A DNA stretch of 64,000 bases, taken from an uncultured Candidatus Saccharibacteria bacterium (GTDB taxonomy: Bacteria > Patescibacteriota > Doudnabacteria > UBA920). The DNA is taken from NCBI GenBank assembly GCA_964453265.1, contig CAYVNU010000002.1, forward strand, positions 40,619 through 104,618. Reading direction: 5' to 3'. Below, in pieces: positions 6,820 to 50,456 of this stretch. The notes below the pieces were generated by a model that was not told the origin of the DNA, searched no databases, and worked only from the letters and a program-made list of their open reading frames with translations. Numbering within the stretch: position 1 is the first letter of the stretch; every line of letters starts with the position of its first letter. The position numbers and the translations under genes are program-made.

Positions 6820-8433
6820 CTATTTGTCATATATTAAGCCCAAGGTTTTTTTAAGAAATTTTAAAACACTTTCCGCATTTTTGAGCTTTAATATTATGGC
6901 AAAAATGAAAAATCCCGCAAAGCCAAACAGACTGGCAGTACTAAATTGAATTAAAATACCTATACCAGTTTTAGTATTTAAAAATGGAGCAGATAGATAT
7001 AGAAAAATGTAACCTAAAAGACCACCAACTATACTTGAAAGCAATAGTTTTGCCAAAAAATCTGACAAATTTTTGTCAAAAACCCAATCAGACTTATTTG
7101 GTGAATAATCTTGTAACATGCTTTGTCTCAATAAAACAAACAAAATTCCTGCGTTTAGTATACTTGCAATTACAAAAGCTACGGCAATTCCAATGACTCC
7201 CAATTTAGGCGCCAGATACCATGCAAAAAAAATATTAAGAGCCATACAAATTAAACCAATAATAACCGGTGTTTTAGTATTTTGTCGTGCATAAAACGCT
7301 CTGGACAAAAGAGGTAAAATTGATTGACTAAATAAACCAAAACAAAAAACACCTAAAGTCTGAAAAGTTAAAATGGTATCTTCCCAATTAAAATTGCCGG
7401 CGCCATAGACAAGTCTAACAATATAAGCCCTAAAAATTAAAATAAAAATTGAAATAGGAATTACAAAAAATAAAATTTGCATAAGACTGTTGTAAAAATT
7501 TTCAGCATACTCTCTAAAATTATTTTTCGCATAACTTTCAGACATGCTGGGGAAAATTGCCATGGCAGTTGAAACACCAAAAATCCCTGTTGGTACTGCC
7601 TGTAAATTGTTAGCCAAATTTAAAATCGCAATAGAACCAGAGTTCAAATATGAGCCCACAATCGACCCTATTAACAAACTTAGTTGTGAAGTATCTACGC
7701 CAAATATTCTTGGGAAAAAAAGTTTTCCAATTTTTTTAACTGCGGGATCTCGCAAATCTAACTCAAAAGAAAATTTATAGCCTGTCGCCGCGTTTTCAAT
7801 AATTTGCGCAAATAAATGTAAAAAAGCGCCGAGTATTACTCCAAAACCTAAACCGTTTAAACCGTATTTGGGAAATAAAACTAAAATTCCAAAAACAATT
7901 CCTCCATTATAGAGAATTGGAGCAAGACTGGAAACTAAAAATCTTTTTTTCGCGTTGAGCATGCTGCCAAAAAAATTCGATAAAGTAAAAATTATTGGCG
8001 AAAGCAAAAATATTTTAGTAAGACTAATAGTGTCTGTTAATTTCTGACCGTTAAATCCCGGAACCATTAACTTAGTAAGCCAATGTGCGTTAAAATAGAG
8101 CGCAATACAAATTACAGACATCGACAAAAACGAAAAGCTTAAAATTGTATTAGCAATTTTATCCGCTCTGTTTTTATCTTTATTTAGCCACTCTGTAAAA
8201 ACGGGGATAAAAGCTGCTGAAAGAGTGCCTAGAATAAGTAAATTAAAAATAAAGTCCGGAAGTCTAAAAGCAGCATAATAGCTGTCTAACGTATCACCTG
8301 CGCCAAAGCGGCTGGCCAATAGCCTGTCTCTTAACAAACCCACAAACCTAGAAACTAACGCGAAAAAACCGACTATAAAGGCGGCTTTAGTTAGAGAAAA
8401 ATTAGATTCCCAGTTTCTTATTTTATTTATCAT
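6820..8433 (-). CDS. murJ: Lipid II flippase MurJ (MviN)
   Basis: The N-terminus RFVGLLRDRLLASRFGAGDTLDSYYAAFRLPD is typical of MurJ. The protein is 537 aa and polytopic. Confidence 0.9.
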   Translation of the reverse strand: MINKIRNWESNFSLTKAAFIVGFFALVSRFVGLLRDRLLASRFGAGDTLDSYYAAFRLPDFIFNLLILGTLSAAFIPVFTEWLNKDKNRADKIANTILSFSFLSMSVICIALYFNAHWLTKLMVPGFNGQKLTDTISLTKIFLLSPIIFTLSNFFGSMLNAKKRFLVSSLAPILYNGGIVFGILVLFPKYGLNGLGFGVILGAFLHLFAQIIENAATGYKFSFELDLRDPAVKKIGKLFFPRIFGVDTSQLSLLIGSIVGSYLNSGSIAILNLANNLQAVPTGIFGVSTAMAIFPSMSESYAKNNFREYAENFYNSLMQILFFVIPISIFILIFRAYIVRLVYGAGNFNWEDTILTFQTLGVFCFGLFSQSILPLLSRAFYARQNTKTPVIIGLICMALNIFFAWYLAPKLGVIGIAVAFVIASILNAGILFVLLRQSMLQDYSPNKSDWVFDKNLSDFLAKLLLSSIVGGLLGYIFLYLSAPFLNTKTGIGILIQFSTASLFGFAGFFIFAIILKLKNAESVLKFLKKTLGLIYDK

Positions 8434-34079: not shown

Positions 34080-34526
34080 CTACTTCTCAAAAATTTTTTT
34101 CTGCAGGGAATTTATTAGACAAAAACGACTCTTTTGATTCTTGGACGTAATGATTTCCCCTTTACGCTCAGCCTTATAGAAGGCCTTTAAAACACCCAGT
34201 AGTTGTTTTGTCCAAAGCATTTTTTTGTACCCCTGAACTACAAAGGCTTCTAATTCCCTAGAGTATCTATTTTGAGAGGCAATTTCTGCCAGTAAATCTT
34301 CTTGAGTAATTTTTGCCATCAACAGCTCTCTAGCCTCTCGTTTTCGATCATTGGTTTCTATGACAACATATGTTTTCCCAGTCAAACTGCTCAGAGTTTT
34401 GAGCAATACAGCAATCTTTTGTTCCCGACGAGTAACAACTGAGTTATGGACAACTCCTTTTTGTTGAAAAACCATTGAACCCTCTTTCCTTGCAAGCGAG
34501 TACCCTAGCGCTCTTACCGCCTGCAT
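34080..34526 (-). CDS. Hypothetical protein (148 aa), an orphan ORF embedded in the GC-rich block
   Basis: ORF only. No recognisable motif. Flanked by the ttttgcgctgg direct repeats. Confidence 0.4.
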   Translation of the reverse strand: MQAVRALGYSLARKEGSMVFQQKGVVHNSVVTRREQKIAVLLKTLSSLTGKTYVVIETNDRKREARELLMAKITQEDLLAEIASQNRYSRELEAFVVQGYKKMLWTKQLLGVLKAFYKAERKGEIITSKNQKSRFCLINSLQKKIFEK

Positions 34527-34617
34527 TGTAGTTTTGCGCTGGTGACCAGGCTGTCATTCCAAACGTGGTGAGAAATCCCTTATAATTTAACGTTCGATCA
34601 TTGTTAGATAATCAAAA

Positions 34618-34682
34618 GTTAAGGGATCCCTCCGCTCCTCGCCAATTTTATTTCATTAAAATTGGCTCGTCGGTCGGGATGA
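34618..34682. repeat. Dispersed GC-rich repeat, copy R3 (gttaagggatccctccgctcctcgcc...cgggatg)
   Basis: Shares the 15-mer ttaagggatccctcc and the terminal cgggatg with R4. Confidence 0.45.
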
Positions 34683-34859
34683 CAAAACTCATCAAAACAA
34701 AACCACCTTCCGCAAAGAAAGGTGGTTAGGAAAGTTTTGTAACAATGCTAAACCCCAGACTTTGCGAAAGAAGGCAAAGTCCACCAAGCTGATACTGTAT
34801 ATTTTATAACTGCTTTACTCATAAAAATATGATAAACCATCGACTGGCCTATGTCAATA

Positions 34860-34873
34860 GCGTACTAGTACGC
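34860..34873. promoter_or_regulatory. Perfect 14-bp palindrome gcgtactagtacgc, a TrpR-family operator-like CTAG site upstream of yerC
   Basis: Perfect palindrome located 105 bp upstream of the TrpR-like gene. A related CTAG-n4-CTAG site (ctagcgtactag) lies at 33881-33892. Confidence 0.4.
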
Positions 34874-34977
34874 TGAAACACATAAATAATTAAGTTTATT
34901 TGAATTATCCACATCTTTATTTACAAAATCTTTTACTAATGTTACCGTACAAGTAACTCTACTAATAACAAATATTT

Positions 34978-35268
34978 ATGAAATACAAGCATGAGTACGG
35001 TGTAGAATTAGAAAAGTTAATAGAAAAAATAGGTCAAACCAAAGACAATAAACTAATGCGTGAGTTTTTGTTTGATTTACTCTCCCCTGCTGAGTACCGA
35101 GAAGTGGCTGTTAGATGGCAAATTGTCAAAATGCTTAACAAAAACATTCCACACCGGGAAATATCTAAAACACTAAAAGTTGGTTTAGCTACAATAAACC
35201 GAGGCGCGAGAGAATTGGTCAATAAAAAAGGCGGCTTTAAAACTGTATTAAATAAATTTTTTAAATAA
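34978..35268 (+). CDS. yerC: TrpR-like DNA-binding protein (YerC/YecD family)
   Basis: 96 aa. The stretch REVAVRWQIVKML...ISKTLKVGLATINRGAREL matches the TrpR/YerC helix-turn-helix. Confidence 0.75.
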   Translation: MKYKHEYGVELEKLIEKIGQTKDNKLMREFLFDLLSPAEYREVAVRWQIVKMLNKNIPHREISKTLKVGLATINRGARELVNKKGGFKTVLNKFFK

Positions 35269-35324
35269 GCTGTAAAAAATCTTATCAAAAATTAAACCCT
35301 GTTTTATACAGGGTTTAACTTATT

Positions 35325-35642
35325 TTATATTTTCTGTCTGCGTCTTCTAAGGCTAACTTGCTTGTCTTTCTCTTTAGCCAATTGTTCTTTTATTTTAGGC
35401 AAAACTAAGTCTAAAGCTGCGTAAAAATCTATACCTAAACTATCTGCGTAATAACCCGCCGGCTGAATATCTATTTCCGCCCTGTGTACCATGCCTTTGT
35501 TATGTTTTTTTAAAACTTCCAGCTCTACTCGAATTTTGTGTTCAGGTTTAATAAACTTAGAAATTGATTCTAGCTTATTTTCAATAACTTCCCTTATTGC
35601 CGGGGTAATGGTGGTGTTAGTTGCTTTGATGTTTATATTCAT
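35325..35642 (-). CDS. hpf: Ribosome hibernation promoting factor (HPF/RaiA family)
   Basis: MNINIKATN...ITPAIREVIENKL...VELEV. The true start is probably the internal Met at 35642; the ORF track extends to 35666. Confidence 0.8.
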   Translation of the reverse strand: MNINIKATNTTITPAIREVIENKLESISKFIKPEHKIRVELEVLKKHNKGMVHRAEIDIQPAGYYADSLGIDFYAALDLVLPKIKEQLAKEKDKQVSLRRRRQKI

Positions 35643-35742
35643 AGAATGATTGACATAATTGAACAAGAATGACCATAAATGACATGATTAAATCTTGCTT
35701 AATCCTTAATTCTTTTAAATCTTGCTTTATACAGCTATTATA

Positions 35743-36957
35743 TCACACTAATTCTTTTAAATCAGAGTCAGAAAAACCTATTAATTCCGGCTCAATGTGG
35801 ATATTTATCCCGAGCTTTTCTAGGGCGGTTTTTTTAACTTGCTTAGCCAGATTTAAGACATCGCTTGCGGTAGCTTTGCCGGTTTGGTTAATTATAACCA
35901 AAGGTTGATTTTTATTAATAGCCGCCCCACCGAAAGCAAAATCTTTCAATCCGCAAATATCAAGCAAAAATGCAGTTGGTACTTTTACGCTATTGGCGTC
36001 AGTAAATTTTTTCTGTTCAAGTTTTTCAGCAGTTTCTTGGCCAAATTCTTTTTGCAACCTATTTTTTAAAATTAAAAATTCTTCTTGATTTAAAATTAAA
36101 TTTTTAAAAAATGAGCCGGCGTTACCTTTTTTAGCTTCTGTGGGAAACGGAAATTTTTTATTTCTTATTTCTATAATTGCCTGACGAATTTCTAACAGGC
36201 TTGGCTTTATATTGGCAAATTTTTGAGCTAAATCTCGGTAATTTAAAATCGGCAGAGGGTTTTTTGAAAGTTTAAAGACAATTTCAAAAATAATATACCT
36301 GCCTTTTTCAGTGCTATTAAATATGCTCTTTCGATACGAAAATCCGCAATCTGTTTTATTTAGACTTAATATTTGATGGGTTTGTTTGTCAAAAACCGTT
36401 ACAGATTCTATGAGATTTTTAGCTTCCTGTCCGTAAGCCCCGACATTTTGCACGGCAATAGCACCTGTGCTCCCGGGAATATGCGATAAATTTTCCATTC
36501 CCCACCAATTATTTTTTACCGCAAAATCAACCACACTGTCCCAATTTTCACCTGAAGCCACTTTAAGAAAAATAAAATTTTTATCCGATCCGAGTCCGCC
36601 AATTGGCGGAGAGGAATCGATTTTTTGTACATGCTGATTTATATTAAGGGATCCCTCCTCCTTCGTTAAAGCTTCGGCGGACAAGTCGGCCGCACTCGGG
36701 ATGGTTAAAACATGAAAACTTTCGATTACTTCAATCCCCTTATTTACAACCCTAATAACCAACCCGCTAAATCCACTGTCAGCTATTAATAAATTACTAC
36801 CCCCGCCCAAAATAAACACGGGTAAGTTTTTTGCTTGAGCAAATTCAAAAGCCGTTAAAGCATCAAACTGGTCTTTAACCTCGCAAAAATATTTGGCCGG
36901 CCCGCCTATTTTAAAAGTGGTGTAAGGTGCTAATTGTATATTTTCTAAAACTTTCAT
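35743..36957 (-). CDS. murB: UDP-N-acetylenolpyruvoylglucosamine reductase MurB, carrying an in-frame repeat-derived insertion
   Basis: N-terminal FAD-binding motifs (YTTFKIGGPAKYF, ILGGGSNLL). The 404-aa length exceeds typical MurB, and the dispersed GC-rich repeat at 36645-36705 lies in-frame inside it. Confidence 0.85.
   Translation of the reverse strand: MKVLENIQLAPYTTFKIGGPAKYFCEVKDQFDALTAFEFAQAKNLPVFILGGGSNLLIADSGFSGLVIRVVNKGIEVIESFHVLTIPSAADLSAEALTKEEGSLNINQHVQKIDSSPPIGGLGSDKNFIFLKVASGENWDSVVDFAVKNNWWGMENLSHIPGSTGAIAVQNVGAYGQEAKNLIESVTVFDKQTHQILSLNKTDCGFSYRKSIFNSTEKGRYIIFEIVFKLSKNPLPILNYRDLAQKFANIKPSLLEIRQAIIEIRNKKFPFPTEAKKGNAGSFFKNLILNQEEFLILKNRLQKEFGQETAEKLEQKKFTDANSVKVPTAFLLDICGLKDFAFGGAAINKNQPLVIINQTGKATASDVLNLAKQVKKTALEKLGINIHIEPELIGFSDSDLKELV
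36645..36705. repeat. Dispersed GC-rich repeat, copy R4, in-frame inside murB
   Basis: ttaagggatccctcctccttcgttaaagcttcggcggacaagtcggccgcactcgggatgg. In the murB frame it encodes TIPSAADLSAEALTKEEGSLN. Confidence 0.5.
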
Positions 36958-36997
36958 TATATGGTAGAATCTTTAAATAAATATTTAATATAATTTT

Positions 36998-37390
36998 ATG
37001 CCAAACAACCAACAAGATATAAACCAGCAAGTAGCCGAAGCGCGAGAACATTTTAACGCCGGGCTAAACTTTACTAACCAAGGTAATTATACTGAGTCTG
37101 TTAAAGAATATGAACAGGCCGCTAAAATTTTCCCTTATTTCTACGAAGCTCTGGATAATGCCGGTTTTGACAGAATGGAACTGGGAGATATTGAGGGAGC
37201 AAAAAAGAATTTTGAAGACTCGTTACAGATTGAAGCTAATAACTATACTGCGTTATGTAAGCTAGGAGAATGCCTCTTAAAACTTGGTAATAAAGAAGAA
37301 GCTAAAACTTACTTTATGAAAGCGGCAGCAGCAGCCTCTAACCCTGGTGATGCAGAATATGCCGAACTTTCTGCAGCTCAATGCGACTAA
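36998..37390 (+). CDS. Tetratricopeptide-repeat protein
   Basis: 130 aa with three TPR-like units (AxxxxxxGNYxxA patterns). Confidence 0.7.
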   Translation: MPNNQQDINQQVAEAREHFNAGLNFTNQGNYTESVKEYEQAAKIFPYFYEALDNAGFDRMELGDIEGAKKNFEDSLQIEANNYTALCKLGECLLKLGNKEEAKTYFMKAAAAASNPGDAEYAELSAAQCD

Positions 37391-37409
37391 ATTACTCAAC
37401 TTCCATCAA

Positions 37410-37520
37410 TTCATAAGACAAACGATTAAAATCCCCCACTGCCATAACGACTACCACGTCCCCTTCCTTGGTTTTTTTAAAATATCCAAGGATTCTTTTT
37501 TATTGCCAACAAGATGCATA
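37410..37520 (-). pseudogene. Remnant copy of the murC 3' end (last ~40 codons plus stop), roughly 85% identical to 38876-38983
   Basis: The minus-strand translation is LVGNKKESLDILKKTKEGDVVVVMAVGDFNRLSYELMEVE*. The murC C-terminus is ...LVHNKQEALDILKKEAKEGDVVVVMAVGDFNRLSYELNENL*. The copy is not in frame with the upstream ORF. Confidence 0.6.
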
Positions 37521-37536
37521 TTTCTTTAATTTGCAT

Positions 37537-37980
37537 TTATGCTGGGAAGTTTATAAAAATTACTTTAGGCCTTATCCCTAAAACCCTAGCTATCATTAAA
37601 CGTGTATTTCCAGCTACTTTGTGATACCTTCCATTCATCTTAAAAATAATTGGGGCTGCCATGGGAACTCCTTTCTTCATATCAGCCAATTTATTCTCCC
37701 AGCTTCTCTTATTCAACGCAGCAATTTCTTCAAGCTTTTCAACTTCACCCTCTGAAAGATCTTGGAAAGAATCTGTATTTTCTAGGACAGACCATATTTC
37801 ATCCGATAAAGTTTCGAGCTGCGCATTGTCAAACTGATTTTTAAAGGCCCACATTATTTGCTTGTATAATTCTTTATCACCTCGTGAAAACTCTTTAGCT
37901 GTACGATCAATTTCACCAAACTCATATTCTAGATTTGGCTTCTCCCATTGTTCGGGCTTTTGTTTTTCAAATTCTCTCAT
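37537..37980 (-). CDS. Hypothetical protein with a C-terminal ParB/Srx-like motif
   Basis: 147 aa. The C-terminal RYHKVAGNTRLMIARVLGIRPKVIFI resembles the ParB N-terminal domain pattern (Y.iiaGerRlrAa..lG...pviv). This is a weak call. Confidence 0.45.
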   Translation of the reverse strand: MREFEKQKPEQWEKPNLEYEFGEIDRTAKEFSRGDKELYKQIMWAFKNQFDNAQLETLSDEIWSVLENTDSFQDLSEGEVEKLEEIAALNKRSWENKLADMKKGVPMAAPIIFKMNGRYHKVAGNTRLMIARVLGIRPKVIFINFPA

Positions 37981-38028
37981 ATCAGCACTTTCGTTAATTT
38001 GTATCCAAATCTCTTTAAATTCACTACT

Positions 38029-38856
38029 TTAATTGCCATATAATTTAATAGCCTCATTAAGACCAAAAGCCATTTTCGTTAGTTTACCCATTTCTAAAGC
38101 TGAATCTTTCAATTTTTTTGGATTTGACTCAACTCTATCCCAAATACTACTTTTGGCGGGAAATATGTTATAAATTCTCTTAGAGTCAAACGAATTTAAA
38201 ATTGTCTTTGCACACTCATACTGTTCAAATTCATTATACACAATTAAAATATCTGTGGCTGCGGTTTTTAAAACATGCGTAACATGTTCAATGGTTTGAG
38301 AGTCCCTGGCAATAGGGTCTTTAAATTTTTCTGTACCTATCTTAACATACCCAGGAGCAAAAAATGGCGCGGAAGCTGCTGCTTTAAAAAGTTTTACATA
38401 GTCTATTTCTTTAAAATTGTGAACTTCTAAATATTCGTCTAGATTTTTTGTTAAATTATTTAAACGCAAATATAGTTTAGTTGACTGATCTAGTATATTA
38501 CTTACATTCACATTTTTTTGCTTTTGCAAAACACTAATTAAATAATCTGAATCAATTAACTTCCAAAATCTAAAAGGATTAAAAAACTTTTTTGAACATA
38601 AATCCTCATAATACACACTAACATTTTTTAAACCATCACCGGACAAAAAACTTGAAGCATTAAAGAACCCTGATGAAATTGTATATATAGAGTCAAAAGC
38701 TTGCCCAAAGCCCATTTCAAGCAAAGCTGCCATAGCTCCTGCGCTTCTAACCCCACTCATAAATCCGCCAAAATTTACTAAGGCAATCGTTAGACCATCT
38801 TTAGTAGGAACTTTTTTATTTTTTCTTGCAAAAATATGTCCGAGTACTGGGTGCAT
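38029..38856 (-). CDS. Patatin-like phospholipase paralogue; the active-site motifs are partly degenerate
   Basis: The glycine-rich LVNFGGFMSGVRSAG stretch sits where the oxyanion motif falls. TISSG replaces GxSxG. No clear DGG motif is present. Confidence 0.55.
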   Translation of the reverse strand: MHPVLGHIFARKNKKVPTKDGLTIALVNFGGFMSGVRSAGAMAALLEMGFGQAFDSIYTISSGFFNASSFLSGDGLKNVSVYYEDLCSKKFFNPFRFWKLIDSDYLISVLQKQKNVNVSNILDQSTKLYLRLNNLTKNLDEYLEVHNFKEIDYVKLFKAAASAPFFAPGYVKIGTEKFKDPIARDSQTIEHVTHVLKTAATDILIVYNEFEQYECAKTILNSFDSKRIYNIFPAKSSIWDRVESNPKKLKDSALEMGKLTKMAFGLNEAIKLYGN

Positions 38857-40347
38857 TTATAAATTTTCGTTTAGTTCATAACTTAGTCTGTTAAAGTCCC
38901 CCACTGCCATAACAACCACCACATCCCCTTCCTTGGCTTCTTTTTTTAAAATATCCAAGGCTTCTTGTTTGTTATGAACAAGTCGAACTTGATTTTTGTT
39001 ACTTGATTCTTGTTTCTTAATTTCTTTAATTACATCGGAAGAAGATATAGTGGCTTCTGATATTTTCTCGCGCGCGGGATAGATTTCGGAAATTAAAATT
39101 TCATCGGCAGCATCAAAAGCTTTAACTAAGTCAGGCAAAGTGGCTTTTGTCCGACTAAATGTATGCGGCTCAAAAACGGCCCACAACTTAGGTGTTAGGT
39201 TAGAGCTGTTAGGTTTTAGATTAGAAAAATACTTAAGACGAGCTGCTTCTAGTGTTTCGCGCACAGCGGTTGGGTGGTGAGCGTAATCGTCTATAATAGT
39301 CACGCCATTTTTTACACCCACAACTTCAAAGCGCCTCTTAAGGCCGGTAAAACTAATTAAGTCCAATAAAAACTGCTGCGGCTGAAAACCCAGTGCTCTG
39401 AGTGTAGCCACAGAAGCCAAAACATTGTAAACATTCAATTTTCCGGGCAGCTGGATTTTATACTCTTCAGTTTGACCAAGCAGCTGAGCGTTTAAATTTT
39501 TTGAAAATTTATTTATTACTTCAAAGTTTGTATATTGCCCGTATTGAATATTTTCAACTTTAAAATCAGCGTTATTATCTACTCCAAAACTTACTGAGGA
39601 CAGATTAGATTCGTGAACCAATCTAACTAAATTAGAATTATCCGCGTTGTAAACAATCAATCCATCTTCAGGCATTGCCGCAATTAACTGTCTAAATTCA
39701 TCTTCAAGCTCCTCTAAACTAGAAAAAATATCCGGGTGGTCGTATTCCAAGTTTGTTAGAACCAAAATGTCGGGTTTATAAAAATGAAATTTCGGGGTCG
39801 GATCGTCAAACTGTTCTTTGTATTCATCGCCCTCAAAAACAAAATAATTACCGTCGCCGGAATAAAAGTTTAAATTATAATTTTTTAAAACACCACCGGC
39901 CATAAAAGAACTATTATCCAAATTCTTCAGCAAATGACCAAGTAATGCTGTTGTTGTGGATTTCCCGTGAGTACCGGCAACAACAATTCTCAATTTGTCT
40001 TTACTTAAAAAATACAAATATTCAGCCAGGCCACAGCGAGTCAAATTGTTTTTTAAAATATAATCAACTTCCGGGTTTGTAAAACTTTCACCAGCAGATA
40101 TAACATACAAATCCGCGTGAGAGTTTTTAACCTGCTCTGAATCATAACCAACAAAATATTTTATTTGGTTTTTATCTAAAACATCTTTTGCCGGAGAATA
40201 AACACTTTTACTGTCGCTACCTAAAACTTCAAAACCCGCTTCTGAGGCTAAGTTAGCCGCTGCAGACATAGCAATACCGCCTATGCCCACAAAATATATT
40301 TTGGCGCCGGGAACAAGAATATTTTCTAAATCTAAGTTTGTATCCAT
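38857..40347 (-). CDS. murC: UDP-N-acetylmuramate--L-alanine ligase MurC (an Mpl-type ligase is not excluded)
   Basis: FVGIGGIAMS N-terminus, the P-loop VAGTHGKSTTT, and NLEYDHPDIF. Confidence 0.85.
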   Translation of the reverse strand: MDTNLDLENILVPGAKIYFVGIGGIAMSAAANLASEAGFEVLGSDSKSVYSPAKDVLDKNQIKYFVGYDSEQVKNSHADLYVISAGESFTNPEVDYILKNNLTRCGLAEYLYFLSKDKLRIVVAGTHGKSTTTALLGHLLKNLDNSSFMAGGVLKNYNLNFYSGDGNYFVFEGDEYKEQFDDPTPKFHFYKPDILVLTNLEYDHPDIFSSLEELEDEFRQLIAAMPEDGLIVYNADNSNLVRLVHESNLSSVSFGVDNNADFKVENIQYGQYTNFEVINKFSKNLNAQLLGQTEEYKIQLPGKLNVYNVLASVATLRALGFQPQQFLLDLISFTGLKRRFEVVGVKNGVTIIDDYAHHPTAVRETLEAARLKYFSNLKPNSSNLTPKLWAVFEPHTFSRTKATLPDLVKAFDAADEILISEIYPAREKISEATISSSDVIKEIKKQESSNKNQVRLVHNKQEALDILKKEAKEGDVVVVMAVGDFNRLSYELNENL

Positions 40348-40349
40348 AA

Positions 40350-41270
40350 TTATTTTTTCTCCTTTAACAAACTTTTAATTTTTGGCAAATAATTAAGCGC
40401 GTTCTGCCTGCCTAAATTATAATAATACAGCATAGCTTCTTCTGAAAGTTCTGTTCTGTTTAATTTAGGAATAATCGGGGTAATTAGTAAATCACATTTT
40501 TCTTTCGGTTTTAAAGCTGCTTTGTTAGCTAAGATAGCTAAATCCATACTCTTACCTAAAACCGTAAAAATATTTGGCGCGTGATGCGTCTGCTGATCAT
40601 CCTCGTTAGAAAATACCCCGTTTAGTAATTCACCAATTTGGTCAAAAAATAATATTTTTTTAAAAAAATTCAGGGTTTTTCTGAAATTAATCTGCCCCTC
40701 CGTAAAAATATGCTTAGTTCCTCTCATATTAATTCCAACCGTAACATCGGGCTGAAATTTTTTTAAAGACGAAACGGGAACCTGAGAAAGCAATCCTCCA
40801 TCTACTAAAATTTTATTTCCCCACATGACCGGTTCAAATATGCCGGGCAGAGTACAGGAAACAATTGCGGCTTTGGCAATATCTCCCATGCACATATCAA
40901 CCAAATTACCCGACTCAATATCAACTCCCACGAAAGACATAATTGGCCTAACTTCTTCGAAGTTTTTACCTTGGGTTAAATTTCTTAATTGTTCTTCCGC
41001 CGGATCTAGACTGTAGAGCCCTCCATGGCCAACGCTTTTCCCAATAAATTGCTTTATATTATTCTTATTTATTTTTAAAGTAATTTCTTTGAGTTTTTCT
41101 AAAGCCCCACAAGCATAAGCAGCTGCGGCCAAAGAACCCCCGGACATAGCCGTAATATAATCTACCCGCACACCAGCTTCCTTTAAAACCTCCAAAAAAC
41201 CAATATAAAAAGTAGTGCGATTACCGCTTCCGCTTAATGCCAAACCTAAAGTTAATTTCTGCTCATCCAT
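40350..41270 (-). CDS. Patatin-like phospholipase
   Basis: GSGNRT oxyanion motif, AMSGGS nucleophile elbow and the VDGG Asp motif. Confidence 0.8.
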   Translation of the reverse strand: MDEQKLTLGLALSGSGNRTTFYIGFLEVLKEAGVRVDYITAMSGGSLAAAAYACGALEKLKEITLKINKNNIKQFIGKSVGHGGLYSLDPAEEQLRNLTQGKNFEEVRPIMSFVGVDIESGNLVDMCMGDIAKAAIVSCTLPGIFEPVMWGNKILVDGGLLSQVPVSSLKKFQPDVTVGINMRGTKHIFTEGQINFRKTLNFFKKILFFDQIGELLNGVFSNEDDQQTHHAPNIFTVLGKSMDLAILANKAALKPKEKCDLLITPIIPKLNRTELSEEAMLYYYNLGRQNALNYLPKIKSLLKEKK

Positions 41271-42358
41271 TAGTCTGCTAATTTAATAATAATATTTGCG
41301 ATTTTTTCATCGGAATTTTTTGGCATAATTTTCTTTATATTTTTTGCTAAATCATTTTGCAAATTCTGATTAAATAAAATTTTACGGAGAATAACCGGAA
41401 AATTATTTTCATTTAAGTTTTTTTGGGAAATAACCAAAGCGGCATTTTCTTTCATTAAAGCCACGGCATTATACTCTTGATGCGAGTTGGGCATAGGAAC
41501 TATTATACTGATTTTCCCCAAATTTGACAATTCGGTTAAAGTTGAAAGTCCGGCCCTGCAAACTACAAAATCCGCAGCTGCGTAAGCTTCGCCCATATTG
41601 GCAATAAATGAAAAAGCCTTATAACGCTCTTTTTGAGCTTCCTTAACACTCTTACCATAGCCTTCTAAGTGCAAAATTTGAACGAACTGAGTTAACTGTT
41701 TTTTGCATTTTATTATAAGTGAGTTTAAAAATTCTGAACCTGTTCCGCCGCCTAAAACCAGTAAGGTTGGAAAGTTTTTTTCAAACCCGAAATTTTCAAG
41801 CGCCTGATTCTTTGAAAAATTTAAAAGTTTTTTTCTAAAAGGATTGCCGGTTAAAACTGTTTTTTGTTCATAACTTTTATAAAAAAAGCCGAAACCGGAA
41901 TTAAAATCTTTCAAAGATTCTTCGAATGTTACCGTGATTTTATTTGCCGGTATTTGGCATAATTTATTAGCCAAACTAGGGACAATGTCTTGTTGGTGAA
42001 TAACGCAAGGTATTTTAAAAAACCATGCGGCCCATATAACCGGCACCTGTACAAAACTGCCTGTCCCAAATACACACCTCGGCTTAAATTCTTTTAAAAT
42101 ACTAATTGCTTGAAAAAAACCTACCAATATAAAAAAAGGACTAAAAAAATTCTTAACACTAAAATATCGGCGAAATTTTCCAGCTGAAATTGCAACAAAA
42201 TTTATATTTGCTTCTTCAGCCATTTTTCTTTCTGGCCCATTTTTTGTTCCAACAAAAAGAAAAATTGAACCGGGTTTCTTTTCTTTTATACTATCGGCGA
42301 CTGACAATAGAGGACTAACACTCCCCCCACTCCCGCCACCTACCAATAAAATTTTCAT
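41270..42358 (-). CDS. murG: Undecaprenyldiphospho-muramoylpentapeptide beta-N-acetylglucosaminyltransferase MurG
   Basis: N-terminal GGSGG glycine-rich loop (LVGGGSGGSV) and a GT28 fold; 362 aa. Confidence 0.85.
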   Translation of the reverse strand: MKILLVGGGSGGSVSPLLSVADSIKEKKPGSIFLFVGTKNGPERKMAEEANINFVAISAGKFRRYFSVKNFFSPFFILVGFFQAISILKEFKPRCVFGTGSFVQVPVIWAAWFFKIPCVIHQQDIVPSLANKLCQIPANKITVTFEESLKDFNSGFGFFYKSYEQKTVLTGNPFRKKLLNFSKNQALENFGFEKNFPTLLVLGGGTGSEFLNSLIIKCKKQLTQFVQILHLEGYGKSVKEAQKERYKAFSFIANMGEAYAAADFVVCRAGLSTLTELSNLGKISIIVPMPNSHQEYNAVALMKENAALVISQKNLNENNFPVILRKILFNQNLQNDLAKNIKKIMPKNSDEKIANIIIKLAD

Positions 42359-48730: not shown

Positions 48731-49090
48731 TCATCTTTGTAAAAAGATGATTTTTAACACTATAAAAACTAACACTTGACCCATTTGAAACTTCATAGAG
48801 GGTTCTTTCGTCCTGAATAAACCCTTTAAATTTATTTCTATTTTTTTGTTGTTAACAATAAATTTCTGCTGCCAAATAAACTGTTTTACGAAGTCTGTCT
48901 TTACATTTTCTGCTGTCGCATTCATTACTCTCTGATGTTCGTCCTTGCATCTCTCTTTACTAACCGCGACGTAGTATTTATTTGCAATGCCTGTGCAACT
49001 AACAATATTACTGAAATAATTCTGTGACAAGGAATTGGATGGGGATATGTCTTTAAATATTTTTATTAAACTAAATATTCTTATATACAT
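48731..49090 (-). CDS. Hypothetical protein (119 aa); weak call
   Basis: ORF overlapping the upstream Schlafen-like gene by 20 nt. No motif recognised. Confidence 0.3.
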   Translation of the reverse strand: MYIRIFSLIKIFKDISPSNSLSQNYFSNIVSCTGIANKYYVAVSKERCKDEHQRVMNATAENVKTDFVKQFIWQQKFIVNNKKIEINLKGLFRTKEPSMKFQMGQVLVFIVLKIIFLQR

Positions 49091-50456
49091 CCGGATTTAT
49101 TTTCCAACCTCTTGTTTTAGTTTTTGTTCCTGGTAATAACATGATCTTATTTGCATCACTCAAACGTTTAAAAACTTTTCTCATTAAATAATCACTTTTT
49201 ATATGAGTTATTTCTCTAGCTTTGGAAGTTTGAATACTTGGATTTTTCTGAAGATATTGAAAAATAATATCTTCAGGAGAAGCTAATAGTTCATGTTTAA
49301 TAATTACTAAAACACCGTTTTCTAATTCTGTTATTACAGGTGATTTTAAACCTAGTTCTTCCATCTTTACAAAAGCAGTATTTAAACCCTCTCCTACGTC
49401 TTTATTTGGTGGGTTTGGAAATTTATTTAATATCCTCACAATAACACCGTTCCGAGCAAAACGCTGGTCTAATATATTTTTAGGAGTTATATTAGCTGGT
49501 AATCTACCTGGACTCTGAACCTCAACACGGTCATCAAAAATACGAATATGTATGTCATCCTTTATACTATAATCTCTATGCAAAACCGCATTGGCTAAGA
49601 TCTCATGAAGAGTTTCCTGAGGATATTTAATAGATTCGAATTTATCTCCATCAAATTTTGGTATTTGCTCAGTTATCTCAGTTGTTATTCTTACAGCTTC
49701 TTTTATTTGAGAATAAAGACAACCTTCGACTGTTAAAGGATCTTCCGCTAATAAATCCCTGTGACCTTCAAGTTCACGAGTTTTATATCTATAAATTTTA
49801 ATACCACAATGCTTAGAAAGAACAGCTTGCGGTTCGTCAGCAAAAATCAAAGTTCCTGCAACGCTAGGTTTAACATCTCTCAAAAGATTTTGCTTTTTTA
49901 ACCAACGCTCTGCTGTTGTAGTTGGCACCACTAATTTTATAAAATTTTCTGTAACTTCAGATTTCGTAATGACCTCTTTTGAAATATCCAATAGCTCGGT
50001 TTCAAATGAAGCAATACCTTTAGCCATTTCTAAATGTCGTACTTTATCAGGATCGGTTAAGGCTATACTTTGAGCACCCCTTCTCAAGTAAGGAATCCCG
50101 TTTGAAGCTTTAATTATGTGTTGCGCCTTTCCAATTTGAATATGCAGCACAATTCCAGAATATTTAGTACATTCCCAAAATTCATACTGAAAATTTGTGC
50201 CTAATGGAAAAAGTCCTTCAAAAACCTGCAAGTGCGCATTTGCTGCTTCAGTGTTTATAAAACCCACCCAATCTCTTTCTTTATCAGTTATCCCAATATA
50301 AAGATCGCCTCCATCCGCATTTGCAAAAGCTGATATATGGTTACTTAAAACACTGGGCTTAACTTCTACGGATTTCAAGTCAGTGAAGTGATTTTCTTCA
50401 ATCATTCGAATTTCATCCGCTTGTTCATCGGTGATTTTTGTTAGTGAAATTGGCAT
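49071..50456 (-). CDS. AlbA_2 (Schlafen-like 'putative DNA-binding domain', divergent AAA_4) protein with a C-terminal HATPase_c_4-like region
   Basis: FANADGGDLYIGI motif in the N-terminal domain. The 461-aa architecture is typical of RecG-like putative transcriptional regulators. Confidence 0.7.
   Translation of the reverse strand: MPISLTKITDEQADEIRMIEENHFTDLKSVEVKPSVLSNHISAFANADGGDLYIGITDKERDWVGFINTEAANAHLQVFEGLFPLGTNFQYEFWECTKYSGIVLHIQIGKAQHIIKASNGIPYLRRGAQSIALTDPDKVRHLEMAKGIASFETELLDISKEVITKSEVTENFIKLVVPTTTAERWLKKQNLLRDVKPSVAGTLIFADEPQAVLSKHCGIKIYRYKTRELEGHRDLLAEDPLTVEGCLYSQIKEAVRITTEITEQIPKFDGDKFESIKYPQETLHEILANAVLHRDYSIKDDIHIRIFDDRVEVQSPGRLPANITPKNILDQRFARNGVIVRILNKFPNPPNKDVGEGLNTAFVKMEELGLKSPVITELENGVLVIIKHELLASPEDIIFQYLQKNPSIQTSKAREITHIKSDYLMRKVFKRLSDANKIMLLPGTKTKTRGWKINPDVYKNI

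What the first reader, a model, noticed from the sequence alone, without database searches (positions are those of the whole stretch)
37410..38990. The murC 3' end is duplicated as a direct repeat bracketing a 1.4-kb two-gene insert (patatin-like plus ParB-like small protein)
The last roughly 110 bp of murC, including the stop codon (38876-38983), recur at about 85% identity at 37410-37514. This second copy lies just downstream of an unrelated ORF and is out of frame with it. It encodes ...KEGDVVVVMAVGDFNRLSYEL..*. This arrangement looks like the att-site duplication an integrative element leaves when it targets a gene's 3' end and carries a replacement copy of that end. The bracketed cargo is a patatin-like phospholipase paralogue with degenerate catalytic motifs, plus a 147-aa protein with a ParB/Srx-like C-terminal motif. 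Patatin-like effectors paired with a small partner occur in several anti-phage and toxin systems. No integrase is present, so mobility may be ancient or may have happened by another mechanism.
Basis: seen in the sequence. Interest (0 to 1): 0.65.

Follow-up and report, generated by a model that had tools for sequence, protein, structure and literature searches.

The report
Recombination scar stacking genes after murC
The duplicated murC end is real, but it is best read as a scar of recombination between diverged versions of a variable gene slot between murC and murB in a Doudnabacteria-like (CPR) genome, not the footprint of a mobile defence element.

Summary
The repeat is confirmed. The last ~126 nt of murC (38857-38982) recur at 37392-37513/17 at ~82-85% identity, with a 4-nt frameshifting deletion (blastn E=1e-24). 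There is no other copy in the window or in 13 related lineages.

In the last 63 nt, all 13 differences are synonymous. The two copies therefore diverged inside separate working murC genes and were later joined by recombination.

Two further scars were missed. Nineteen nt right after the p147 stop are the start of murB. A decayed ~34-nt murC end sits in the pat2-p147 spacer.

Relatives share murG-(patatin1)-murC-[slot]-murB. The slot is empty in 6, holds p147 alone in 2 and pat2 plus other genes in 3. One has a PIF1 helicase and one an orphan ORF.

pat2 and p147 never co-occur elsewhere, and they diverge about as much as the flanking core genes. No integrase, tRNA or PADLOC hit was found.

Best reading: illegitimate or unequal recombination between slot haplotypes (HFIR-like) stacked three modules: pat2, p147 and a reverse-strand TPR gene. 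Which side was the incoming DNA is unresolved.

This is an ordinary mechanism in a neat new instance.

The parts
38857..40347 (-). murC (UDP-N-acetylmuramate-L-alanine ligase), intact, 496 aa. Its last ~126 nt (38857-38982) are the proximal repeat copy.
   Evidence: Pfam Mur_ligase, Mur_ligase_M and Mur_ligase_C. It is 63-75% identical to MurC of Doudnabacteria-like MAGs.
38029..38856 (-). pat2: patatin-like hydrolase, 275 aa, variant motifs (TxSxG, DP). Its ATG abuts the murC stop codon.
   Evidence: Pfam PF01734 E=9e-8. Ser61 is nearly invariant and Asp180 invariant across the family. Orthologues at 52-64% identity occupy the same position right after murC in L088, L091 and L094.
37988..38021 (-). 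Older, decayed vestige of a murC 3' end inside the 48-nt pat2-p147 spacer. In the murC frame it reads NLKRFGYKLTK, against a MurC consensus of xFNRLxYELxE.
   Evidence: 27 of 34 nt match the L083 murC end that lies just upstream of p147. Local score is 20 against 7.7+-1.5 for shuffles, with 0 of 2000 shuffles reaching it. By my reading of the alignment, 6 of the 7 differences are nonsynonymous, which indicates neutral decay.
37537..37980 (-). p147: small ParB/Srx-fold protein with invariant LENTDS and H..GNTRLM motifs.
37518..37536 (-). Vestige of the murB 5' end (ATGCAAATTAAAGAAATAT, MQIKEI) directly after the p147 stop codon. It ends at the illegitimate junction with the murC remnant.
   Evidence: The TAA-ATG adjacency is the same as at the p147-murB boundary of L083 and L180. 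It matches 19 of the first 20 nt of L180 murB (ATGCAAATTAAAGAAAATAT).
37392..37517 (-). Displaced murC 3' remnant (distal repeat copy), a pseudogene fragment with a 4-nt deletion. When the frame is restored it encodes HLVGNKKESLDILKK..KEGDVVVVMAVGDFNRLSYELMEVE*.
   Evidence: An independent ENA assembly, L179, reproduces it at 99.2% identity, including the junction up to 37526.
36998..37390 (+). TPR gene, 130 aa, convergent with the remnant (stop codons 1 nt apart). No ORF of 180 aa or more lies on the + strand in this window.
   Evidence: Pfam TPR_2 E=1.5e-16. The word-indexed search of 5.8 billion proteins found no homologue at E<=1e-8 other than itself. It is absent from all related loci.
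35743..36957 (-). murB, intact, 404 aa. It is the downstream boundary of the variable slot and is now separated from the operon by the reverse-strand TPR gene.
   Evidence: Pfam MurB_C and FAD_binding_4. In six relatives it follows murC within about 5-20 nt.
40350..41270 (-). pat1: canonical RssA-like patatin between murG and murC. It is context, not part of the scar.
   Evidence: Pfam Patatin E=5.5e-26 and NCBIfam RssA E=9e-27. It is present in 11 of 12 relatives whose contigs cover that position. It shows no BLASTP similarity to pat2.

Best explanation
**What it is.** The direct repeat is a scar of illegitimate or unequal recombination between diverged haplotypes of one chromosomal locus. 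That locus is the variable slot between murC and murB in the cell-wall operon of a Doudnabacteria-like CPR bacterium.

**Inferred parents.**
- P1: murC-pat2-[old murC vestige]-p147-murB.
- P2: murC-TPR(reverse)-murB.

**The event.** P1 at murB +19 was joined to P2 about 125 nt before the murC stop. A homologous exchange in a flanking core gene completed the event. This could have been homology-facilitated illegitimate recombination. It could also have been Campbell-type integration of a circularised fragment.

**The result.** Both cargo sets were stacked in tandem. One intact murC and one intact murB were kept. A murB-5'/murC-3' fusion fragment was left between the modules, and it has since taken a 4-nt frameshift.

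**An earlier event.** An older join of the same type placed pat2 upstream of an L083-like murC-end/p147 module. It left the decayed vestige in the pat2-p147 spacer.

**Shown versus inferred.**
- Shown: the three scars, their homologies, the substitution pattern and the slot polymorphism in relatives.
- Inferred: the recombination mechanism and the order of events.
- Unresolved: whether pat2-p147 or the TPR gene was the incoming DNA.

**Cargo (secondary).** pat2 is probably an active Ser-Asp acyl hydrolase. p147 is a ParB/Srx-fold protein that probably binds a nucleotide. Both are inferred from sequence and a predicted fold only.
For: **1. The copies are xenologous.**
- They are 81.9% identical over 35 codons, with dS 0.76 and dN 0.11.
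- The last 21 codons carry 13 nt differences and no amino-acid change.
- A binomial test against neutral drift gives P=0.002.
- The functional end is closer to L003 (87%) and L180 (84%) than to the remnant (82%). The remnant is an outlier to all three.

**2. The junction is murB(+19)|murC(-125).** The 19 nt after the p147 stop match murB starts in L083, L180, L094 and L007. They match L180 at 19 of 20 nt, in the same TAA-ATG arrangement.

**3. A second, older murC-end vestige precedes p147.** It scores z~7-8 above shuffles (0 of 2000 reach it), and its changes are mostly nonsynonymous.

**4. The slot is polymorphic across 13 related lineages.**
- Empty: L004-L007, L099, L100.
- p147 only: L083-85, L180.
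- pat2 plus an SDR, a third patatin or a DUF3800 protein: L088, L091, L094.
- PIF1 helicase: L008. Orphan ORF: L003.
- Sources.

**5. Cargo diverges like the core genes.** pat2 is 63.7% identical to L088 and p147 is 74% identical to L083. MurC is 71-75% identical to the same relatives.

**6. Only this genome carries scars**.

**7. No mobility or defence signal.** No integrase, tRNA or defence hit was found.

**8. The junction is reproduced** in an independent assembly of a 99.2%-identical strain.

**9. A published analogue exists.** Sequential displacement through HFIR that leaves orphaned 3' ends is described for T6SS effector-immunity and Rhs loci (PMC5361080). HFIR itself is described in PMC3240628.
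Against: - Neither parental haplotype has been observed. No sampled genome has murC-TPR-murB or murC-pat2-vestige-p147-murB.
- The TPR gene has no detectable homologue at all.
- The direction of transfer could not be polarised. Synonymous similarity to L003 is raised at both the murC 3' end and the murB 5' region.
- Microhomology at the junction cannot be assessed without the parents.
- The second vestige rests on only 34 nt.
- A trans-acting recombinase encoded outside the 64-kb window cannot be excluded.
- Competence or transformation in this organism is unknown.
Confidence: 0.7

Rival explanations
1. One reading: site-specific integration of a small integrative element. The element (pat2 plus p147) carried a replacement murC 3' end and targeted the murC 3' end as attB, as e14 does at icd. 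The integrase has since been lost or acts in trans.
For: - Direct repeats of the target gene's 3' end bracket 1.47 kb.
- The replacement copy keeps murC intact, and the differences are synonymous, as expected for an element-borne surrogate end.
- Integrative elements typically target conserved genes and preserve their function (PMC7192596 abstract).
- The repeat contains an exact 20-nt run (CCTTGGATATTTTAAAAAAA).
Against: - No integrase lies in the insert or among the ORFs tested across 24.6-53.7 kb, and the window has no tRNA.
- The boundary of homology shares only CTTGTT and has no long identical core.
- The distal end of the 'element' is a murB start fragment, which means it is chromosomal DNA from the same locus.
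- pat2 and p147 are separated by another murC vestige. Elsewhere they occur separately, in the same slot and without repeats.
- Cargo divergence tracks that of the core genes.
Confidence: 0.1
2. A purely intragenomic origin. The murC end, or a whole murC, was tandemly duplicated within this lineage. Divergence, partial deletion and unrelated gene insertions followed.
For: A junction that joins a downstream point (murB +19) to an upstream point (murC -125) has the topology of a tandem-duplication joint.
Against: - After an in-genome duplication the non-functional copy should drift neutrally, giving about 79% nonsynonymous changes. Instead, 13 of 13 differences in the conserved part are synonymous.
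- The functional copy is closer to the L003 and L180 orthologues than to the remnant.
- The two 'duplicated' units carry different cargo: pat2-p147 in one and the TPR gene in the other.
- No relative has two murC genes.
Confidence: 0.07
3. A metagenome-assembly chimera that joined two co-occurring strains at the conserved murC end.
For: - The source is a MAG.
- The repeat is a conserved coding stretch that strains could share.
- The independent ENA contigs have only ~2.5x coverage.
Against: - The novel junction (murB vestige | murC remnant) has no shared k-mer that could mislead an assembler.
- The identical layout appears in the 13.5-kb Logan contig L001 (100% identical).
- ENA contig L179, from a 99.2%-identical variant, spans TPR, the remnant and the junction up to 37526.
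- The remnant has its own 4-nt deletion and a distinct C-terminal sequence.
Confidence: 0.03
4. The slot is a dedicated cassette-capture site, functionally like an integron. New modules are repeatedly recruited through the murC 3' end by an unidentified mechanism, and the array is selected for its cargo.
For: - Three modules each follow a full or partial murC end.
- Slot content is highly diverse across 13 lineages.
- Synonymous similarity to L003 is raised on both flanks of the slot.
Against: - Only this genome shows scars. The multi-gene slots in L088, L091 and L094 have none.
- No recombinase is associated with the slot.
- Ordinary homologous exchange in conserved flanks, with rare illegitimate events, explains the data.
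Confidence: 0.08

Closest known systems
Sequential or C-terminal displacement at T6SS effector-immunity and Rhs loci, via homology-facilitated illegitimate recombination (Kirchberger et al. 2017, PMC5361080; Jackson et al. 2009, cited there)
   Same: - A conserved upstream anchor gene stays intact while an older 3' end is pushed downstream and orphaned.
- Successive events build an array of modules.
- No integrase is involved.
- Related strains carry alternative alleles at the same locus.
   Different: - Here the displaced 3' ends belong to an essential housekeeping gene (murC) and encode the same sequence, not alternative toxin tips.
- There are no immunity genes, so no selective logic for keeping orphans is evident.
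- A fragment of the downstream core gene (murB) is trapped as well.
- The organism is a CPR bacterium.
Homology-facilitated illegitimate recombination during natural transformation or conjugation (de Vries & Wackernagel 2002 and Prudhomme et al. 2002, as cited in PMC5361080; PMC3240628)
   Same: There is one homologous anchor in a conserved gene and one illegitimate joint. Foreign DNA is captured next to the anchor. Donor and recipient are diverged relatives.
   Different: - The mechanism is inferred only from the end product.
- Donor, recipient, microhomology and competence are all unknown.
- Campbell-type integration of a circularised fragment would give the same product.
Integrative elements that insert in the 3' end of a protein-coding gene and supply a surrogate end, such as e14 or phage 21 at icd in E. 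coli (from my own knowledge; general principle in PMC7192596)
   Same: The target gene's 3' end is duplicated directly. The functional copy is kept intact. The copies differ mainly at synonymous sites.
   Different: - There is no integrase or excisionase.
- There is no identical core at the homology boundary.
- The 'cargo' genes are resident alleles of the locus in relatives.
- The insert ends in a murB fragment.
Patatin-like phospholipases (PF01734, RssA-like) and ParB/Srx-fold proteins, as the cargo families
   Same: - pat2 passes the Pfam Patatin threshold and keeps the Ser and Asp positions.
- The p147 model matches sulfiredoxin, ParB-N, PadC, KorB, SerK and SbnI, and it carries a GxxR-type motif, GNTR.
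   Different: - pat2 has TxSxG and DP where the canonical motifs are GxSxG and DG.
- p147 has no Pfam ParBc hit. It lacks the Srx catalytic Cys motif and any DNA-binding HTH. It has a CPR-specific N-terminal half with an invariant LENTDS motif.

Membership tests
Integrative genetic element with att duplication at a gene's 3' end | A site-specific recombinase (tyrosine or serine integrase) encoded in or next to the element | tested here: not met
   The insert encodes only pat2 and p147. The genes called across 33.9-47.4 kb and ten further ORFs across 24.6-53.7 kb are all housekeeping or unrelated.
Integrative genetic element with att duplication at a gene's 3' end | attL and attR share an identical core at the crossover, located at the edge of the homology | tested here: not met
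   At the 5' edge of homology only CTTGTT is shared, followed by a divergent stretch. The longest exact runs (20 and 17 nt) are internal. Decay after an old event cannot be excluded.
Integrative genetic element with att duplication at a gene's 3' end | The cargo travels as one unit and the site is empty in relatives | tested here: not met
   pat2 without p147 occurs in L088, L091 and L094. p147 without pat2 occurs in L083-85 and L180. Both sit in the same slot without repeats. Empty slots are murC-murB, never murC-TPR.
Integrative genetic element with att duplication at a gene's 3' end | The target gene is kept functional by a surrogate 3' end | tested here: met
   murC is an intact 496-aa ORF with all three Mur ligase domains, and the displaced end is frameshifted.
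HFIR / displacement-type recombination scar | An intact anchor gene followed downstream by orphaned fragment(s) of the same gene's 3' end | tested here: met
   The remnant lies at 37392-37517 and the older vestige at 37988-38021.
HFIR / displacement-type recombination scar | The orphan fragment diverged as an orthologue in another lineage, not by local drift | tested here: met
   dS is 0.76 against dN 0.11. All 13 differences in the last 63 nt are synonymous. The remnant lies outside the cluster of the functional copy, L003 and L180.
HFIR / displacement-type recombination scar | An illegitimate joint between non-homologous sequences, usually with microhomology | tested here: inconclusive
   The joint murB(+19)|murC(-125) is visible at 37517/37518. 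Microhomology cannot be scored without the parental sequences.
HFIR / displacement-type recombination scar | Alternative alleles of the same locus exist in related genomes | tested here: met
   At least seven different slot states occur in 13 lineages.
HFIR / displacement-type recombination scar | A DNA uptake or transfer route (competence, conjugation) in the organism | not tested
   No search for com or pil genes was made, and only 64 kb of the genome is available.
Patatin-like phospholipase (PF01734), for pat2 | Pfam model above the gathering score, a nucleophile Ser in GxSxG and a catalytic Asp in DG[AG] | tested here: inconclusive
   The Pfam score is 33 bits against a 27.7 cut-off. Ser61 is nearly invariant but sits in TISSG. 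Asp180 is invariant but sits in DP. The distant members P0033 and P0032 keep the DG form, and P0033 also has the canonical GxSxG (GGSAGA). Activity was not tested.
ParB/Srx fold, for p147 | The ParB-N/Srx core fold with a GxxR nucleotide-binding motif | tested here: met
Known anti-phage defence system | Match to PADLOC models or a recurrent pairing of the two genes | tested here: not met
   PADLOC gives only E=0.03-0.05 noise hits and PHROGs gives none. The two genes are never paired in other genomes.

The most novel reading that the evidence does not exclude
The murC|murB junction of Doudnabacteria may be a genuine gene-capture hotspot. Modules would be recruited repeatedly through the conserved murC 3' end, working like an integrase-independent cassette array. 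The recurrent patatin paralogues and the ParB/Srx-fold protein would then have a specific, still unknown role coupled to lipid-linked peptidoglycan synthesis in these lipid-scavenging, ultra-small bacteria.
Probability: 0.1. Interest if true: 0.6.

Novelty: new member of a known kind. Interest (0 to 1): 0.3.

Why it matters
- The locus is a clean, datable record of gene flow between diverged CPR lineages. Two nested recombination scars sit in an essential cell-wall operon.
- The scars show that accessory genes in these tiny genomes can be gained by recombination in conserved core-gene flanks, without mobile-element machinery.
- The case is also a caution. A gene-end duplication that brackets 'cargo' need not be an att site.
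- The biological novelty is modest, because the mechanism is known from Rhs and T6SS loci and from transformation studies.
- Two side observations may be more useful to CPR specialists than the repeat itself. Up to three patatin paralogues are embedded in the Doudnabacteria mur operon. An uncharacterised ParB/Srx-fold family recurs near cell-wall genes.

Tried and rejected
- **Paralogy test.** I tested whether pat2 is a recent paralogue of the upstream patatin pat1, which would imply a tandem duplication of patatin-murC. BLASTP finds no similarity.
- **Family libraries.** PADLOC, PHROGs and NCBIfam gave nothing for pat2 or p147.
- **Other murC-end copies.** tblastn found none in relatives. Shuffle-calibrated local alignment of every slot spacer in L003, L008, L088 and L094 stayed at z<=3.6, which is noise given about 480 tests.
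- **TPR homologues.** I searched for them to locate a P2-like haplotype. None exists at E<=1e-8.
- **Metagenome scan with MurC.** It added only two Doudnabacteria-like loci, both with empty slots.
- **Polarising donor and recipient.** Sliding-window synonymous identity to L003, L083 and L088 is raised on both flanks, so the result is inconclusive.
- **Composition.** The GC profile shows no foreign-looking block.
- **Promoter and terminator scan.** Counts are not above shuffles.
- **My own error.** My first in-frame comparison of the second vestige was mis-registered by one base. The correct register comes from the ungapped alignment.


Full report
**1. Observation**

The repeat is real. The repeat finder reports two abutting direct-repeat blocks. 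They are 37401-37478 / 38866-38943 (78 nt, 78%) and 37472-37513 / 38941-38982 (42 nt, 86%). Their spacings differ by 4 nt.

MAFFT shows a single homology tract that runs from CTTGTT to the stop codon. The distal copy has one 4-nt gap, next to an A7 run. blastn gives 84.8% over 92 nt with E=1.3e-24, and the window holds no other copy.

On the minus strand the distal copy encodes HLVGNKKESLDILKK. After the frameshift it encodes KEGDVVVVMAVGDFNRLSYELMEVE*. MurC itself ends RLVHNKQEALDILKKEAKEGDVVVVMAVGDFNRLSYELNENL*. The remnant's stop codon (37392-37394) is 1 nt from the stop of the convergent TPR gene.

**2. Gene content and organism**

All genes below are on the minus strand unless marked.

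| Feature | Coordinates | Evidence |
|---|---|---|
| GT4 glycosyltransferases, murG | murG 41270-42358 | |
| pat1, RssA-like patatin | 40350-41270 | |
| murC | 38857-40347 | |
| pat2, weak but significant Patatin hit | 38029-38856 | |
| p147, no Pfam hit | 37537-37980 | |
| murC remnant | 37392-37517 | |
| TPR gene (+ strand) | 36998-37390 | |
| murB | 35743-36957 | |
| hpf, trpR | downstream | |

The closest MurC relatives (63-75% identity) are MAGs labelled Candidatus Doudnabacteria or Saccharibacteria, which are CPR bacteria.

**3. What relatives have at this locus**

Thirteen related lineages share GT4-GT4-murG-(pat1)-murC-[slot]-murB-hpf.

| Slot content | Lineages |
|---|---|
| Empty (murB starts about 5-20 nt after murC) | L004, L005, L006, L007, L099, L100 |
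| p147 only | L083-85, L180 |
| pat2 + SDR | L088 |
| pat2 + third patatin | L091-93 |
| pat2 + third patatin + DUF3800 protein | L094-95 |
| 647-aa PIF1 helicase | L008 |
| Orphan 107-aa ORF | L003 |

- In the p147-only lineages, the p147 start abuts or overlaps the murC stop. Its stop is followed directly by the murB ATG.
- Wherever pat2 is present, it starts at the murC stop, as in the window.
- pat2 and p147 co-occur only in the window.
- The TPR gene occurs nowhere else. The word-indexed search of 5.8 billion proteins found no homologue at E<=1e-8.
- pat2 is 63.7% identical to L088 and 52% to L091 and L094. p147 is 74% identical to L083.
- These values parallel pat1 (67.5% to L088, 48-51% to L091 and L094) and MurC (71-75% to the closest relatives, 66-67% to L091 and L094).
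- Both genes therefore look like long-standing alleles of this slot rather than recent foreign cargo.

**4. The two copies are orthologous ends from different lineages**

- Over 35 comparable codons the copies are 81.9% identical, with dS 0.76 and dN 0.11.
- The last 21 codons carry 13 nucleotide differences and no amino-acid change.
- If the fragment had drifted after a local duplication, about 79% of changes should be nonsynonymous. A binomial test gives P=0.002.
- The functional end is nearer to L003 (87%) and L180 (84%) than to the remnant (82%). The remnant is 80% identical to L003 and 74% to L180.
- The remnant therefore spent nearly all of its divergence inside a working murC in another lineage. 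It has decayed little since the join: one 4-nt deletion.

**5. Two further scars**

*(a) A murB 5' vestige.* Directly after the p147 stop codon comes ATGCAAATTAAAGAAATAT (37518-37536, MQIKEI). It matches the murB start in L180 at 19 of 20 nt (ATGCAAATTAAAGAAAATAT). It also matches L083, L094, L088 and L007, in the same TAA-ATG arrangement as the p147-murB boundary of L083 and L180. Homology then switches abruptly to murC about 125 nt before its stop. The novel joint is therefore murB(+19)|murC(-125).

*(b) An older murC 3' vestige.* The 48-nt pat2-p147 spacer contains AATTTAAAGAGATTTGGATACAAATTAACGAAAG (37988-38021).
- 27 of 34 nt match the L083 murC end that lies just upstream of p147.
- The local score is 20 against 7.7+-1.5 for shuffles, and 0 of 2000 shuffles reach it.
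- In the murC frame it reads NLKRFGYKLTK, against NFNRLGYELME in L083.
- By my reading of that alignment, 6 of the 7 differences are nonsynonymous, which fits neutral decay.
- This scar is therefore older than the 125-nt remnant.

No such vestiges are detectable in the slots of L003, L008, L088 or L094. tblastn also finds none in any relative.

**6. Reality of the junction**

The 13.5-kb Logan contig L001 is 100% identical across the whole region. An independent ENA assembly contig, L179, is 99.2% identical, so it comes from a slightly different strain or from low-coverage data. It spans trpR, hpf, murB, TPR, the remnant and the joint up to 37526. An assembly chimera is unlikely.

**7. Mechanism**

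The layout, in operon direction, is:

murC | pat2 | old murC-end vestige | p147 | murB start (19 nt) | murC end (125 nt) | TPR (reverse) | murB

This is what results from stacking three alleles of the slot by two successive unequal or illegitimate recombination events between diverged haplotypes.

- *Event 1 (older).* A murC-pat2 haplotype was joined to an L083-like haplotype at murC(-45), giving murC-pat2-vestige-p147-murB.
- *Event 2 (recent).* That haplotype was joined at murB(+19) to murC(-125) of a murC-TPR-murB haplotype.

Each event needs one illegitimate joint and one homologous exchange in a conserved flank. That is the definition of homology-facilitated illegitimate recombination (PMC3240628). 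Campbell-type integration of a circularised fragment would give the same product. Both outcomes keep one intact murC and one intact murB, which selection would demand.

The closest described phenomenon is sequential displacement at T6SS effector-immunity and Rhs loci. There, orphaned 3' ends accumulate downstream of a conserved anchor without any integrase (PMC5361080).

I could not decide whether pat2-p147 or the TPR gene was the incoming DNA. Synonymous similarity to L003 is raised on both flanks. No ORF of 180 aa or more lies on the + strand in the window, which hints that the reverse-strand TPR gene is the odd one out. That is weak evidence.

**8. Why not an integrative element or a defence cassette**

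- No integrase or recombinase lies in the insert, in the genes called across 33.9-47.4 kb, or among ten further ORFs across 24.6-53.7 kb.
- The window has no tRNA.
- There is no identical core at the homology boundary.
- The 'element' ends in a murB fragment.
- The two genes are separate modules.
- PADLOC and PHROGs give no credible hits.
- The resemblance to e14 at icd (own knowledge; principle in PMC7192596) covers only two points. One is the preservation of the target gene. The other is the synonymous divergence of the duplicated end.

**9. The cargo**

*pat2.* The family keeps a nearly invariant Ser in T-I-S-S-G and an invariant Asp in D-P. The canonical motifs are GxSxG and DG. The distant members P0033 and P0032 keep the DG form, and P0033 also has the canonical GxSxG (GGSAGA). 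The motifs are therefore variant but conserved, not degenerate. An active Ser-Asp hydrolase is the likeliest reading, but this is an inference.

*p147.*
- AlphaFold2 with 20 homologues gives mean pLDDT 90.5.
- A profile search of PDB sequences weakly hits H. pylori ParB (E=0.038), aligning GNTRL with GERRL.
- The invariant motifs are LENTDS and H-x-[VI]-[AS]-GNTRLM.
- Homologues in other CPR genomes sit in unrelated housekeeping contexts. One lies next to a VanY-like M15 peptidase and an Asp/Glu racemase.
- The likeliest reading is a nucleotide-binding or small-molecule-phosphorylating role, but this is speculation from a predicted fold.

**10. Verdict**

A replacement or duplicate murC end did arrive by recombination. 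It did not arrive through a mobile two-gene defence element.
- The feature is a new instance of a known kind of recombination scar.
- It is informative about gene flow in CPR genomes but not surprising in mechanism.
- Interest is 0.3.

Noticed in passing
window 40350-41270; L004-L008, L083, L088, L091, L094, L099, L100: A canonical RssA-like patatin (pat1) lies between murG and murC in 11 of 12 related lineages whose contigs cover that position. It is absent in L003. Some lineages carry up to three patatin paralogues inside the mur operon. Patatin genes embedded in a peptidoglycan-synthesis operon are unusual, and I have no explanation.
   Followed up: partly
L008 7459-9402; L003 7425-7748; L088 8879-9565; L094 9960-10511: The murC|murB slot holds unrelated genes in different lineages: a 647-aa PIF1-family helicase, an orphan 107-aa ORF, a short-chain dehydrogenase and a DUF3800 protein. 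It behaves as a general insertion hotspot in Doudnabacteria-like genomes.
   Followed up: partly
window 35743-36957 (murB); L003 7870-9048: MurB here is 404 aa and the L003 MurB ORF is 393 aa as listed from its TTG start (about 392 aa from the ATG at 7870 that I use as the murB start). Other relatives have 351-369 aa. An extra segment of about 40-50 aa splits the FAD_binding_4 domain into two Pfam stretches.
   Followed up: no
L097 1483-3439; L087 5110-8827; L086; L096: The p147 (ParB/Srx-fold) family is found in several CPR groups, always as a small stand-alone gene. In L097 it lies between a VanY-like M15 peptidase and an Asp/Glu racemase. In L087 it lies downstream of mreB and holB. Together with the murC|murB position, this hints at a link to the cell envelope.
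   Followed up: partly
window 1-64000: All 44 ORFs of 180 aa or more are on the minus strand. The small TPR gene (36998-37390) and trpR (34978-35268) are rare plus-strand genes. ARAGORN found no tRNA gene in the 64 kb.
   Followed up: no
window 38857-39000 and 36560-36957, compared with L003: Identical-codon frequency among conserved residues between this genome and L003 is highest on the two flanks of the slot. It is about 75% in the last 40-50 murC codons and mostly 67-86% across the first ~130 murB codons (one 40-codon window falls to 53%). In GT4, murG and the 5' part of murC it is mostly 30-60%. This may reflect recurrent recombination in the flanks.
   Followed up: partly
window 49071-50456: A 461-aa protein has Schlafen AlbA_2 and HATPase_c_4 domains. 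This architecture is often seen in putative regulators or abortive-infection-like proteins. Here it sits among ribosomal-protein and rpoA genes.
   Followed up: no
L179 (ENA ERZ4216102 NODE_40985) versus window 34396-37526: The independent assembly differs by 9 mismatches and one 16-nt indel. Its gene calls split murB into 251-aa and 109-aa ORFs. This is either a strain with a disrupted murB or a low-coverage (2.5x) assembly error.
   Followed up: no
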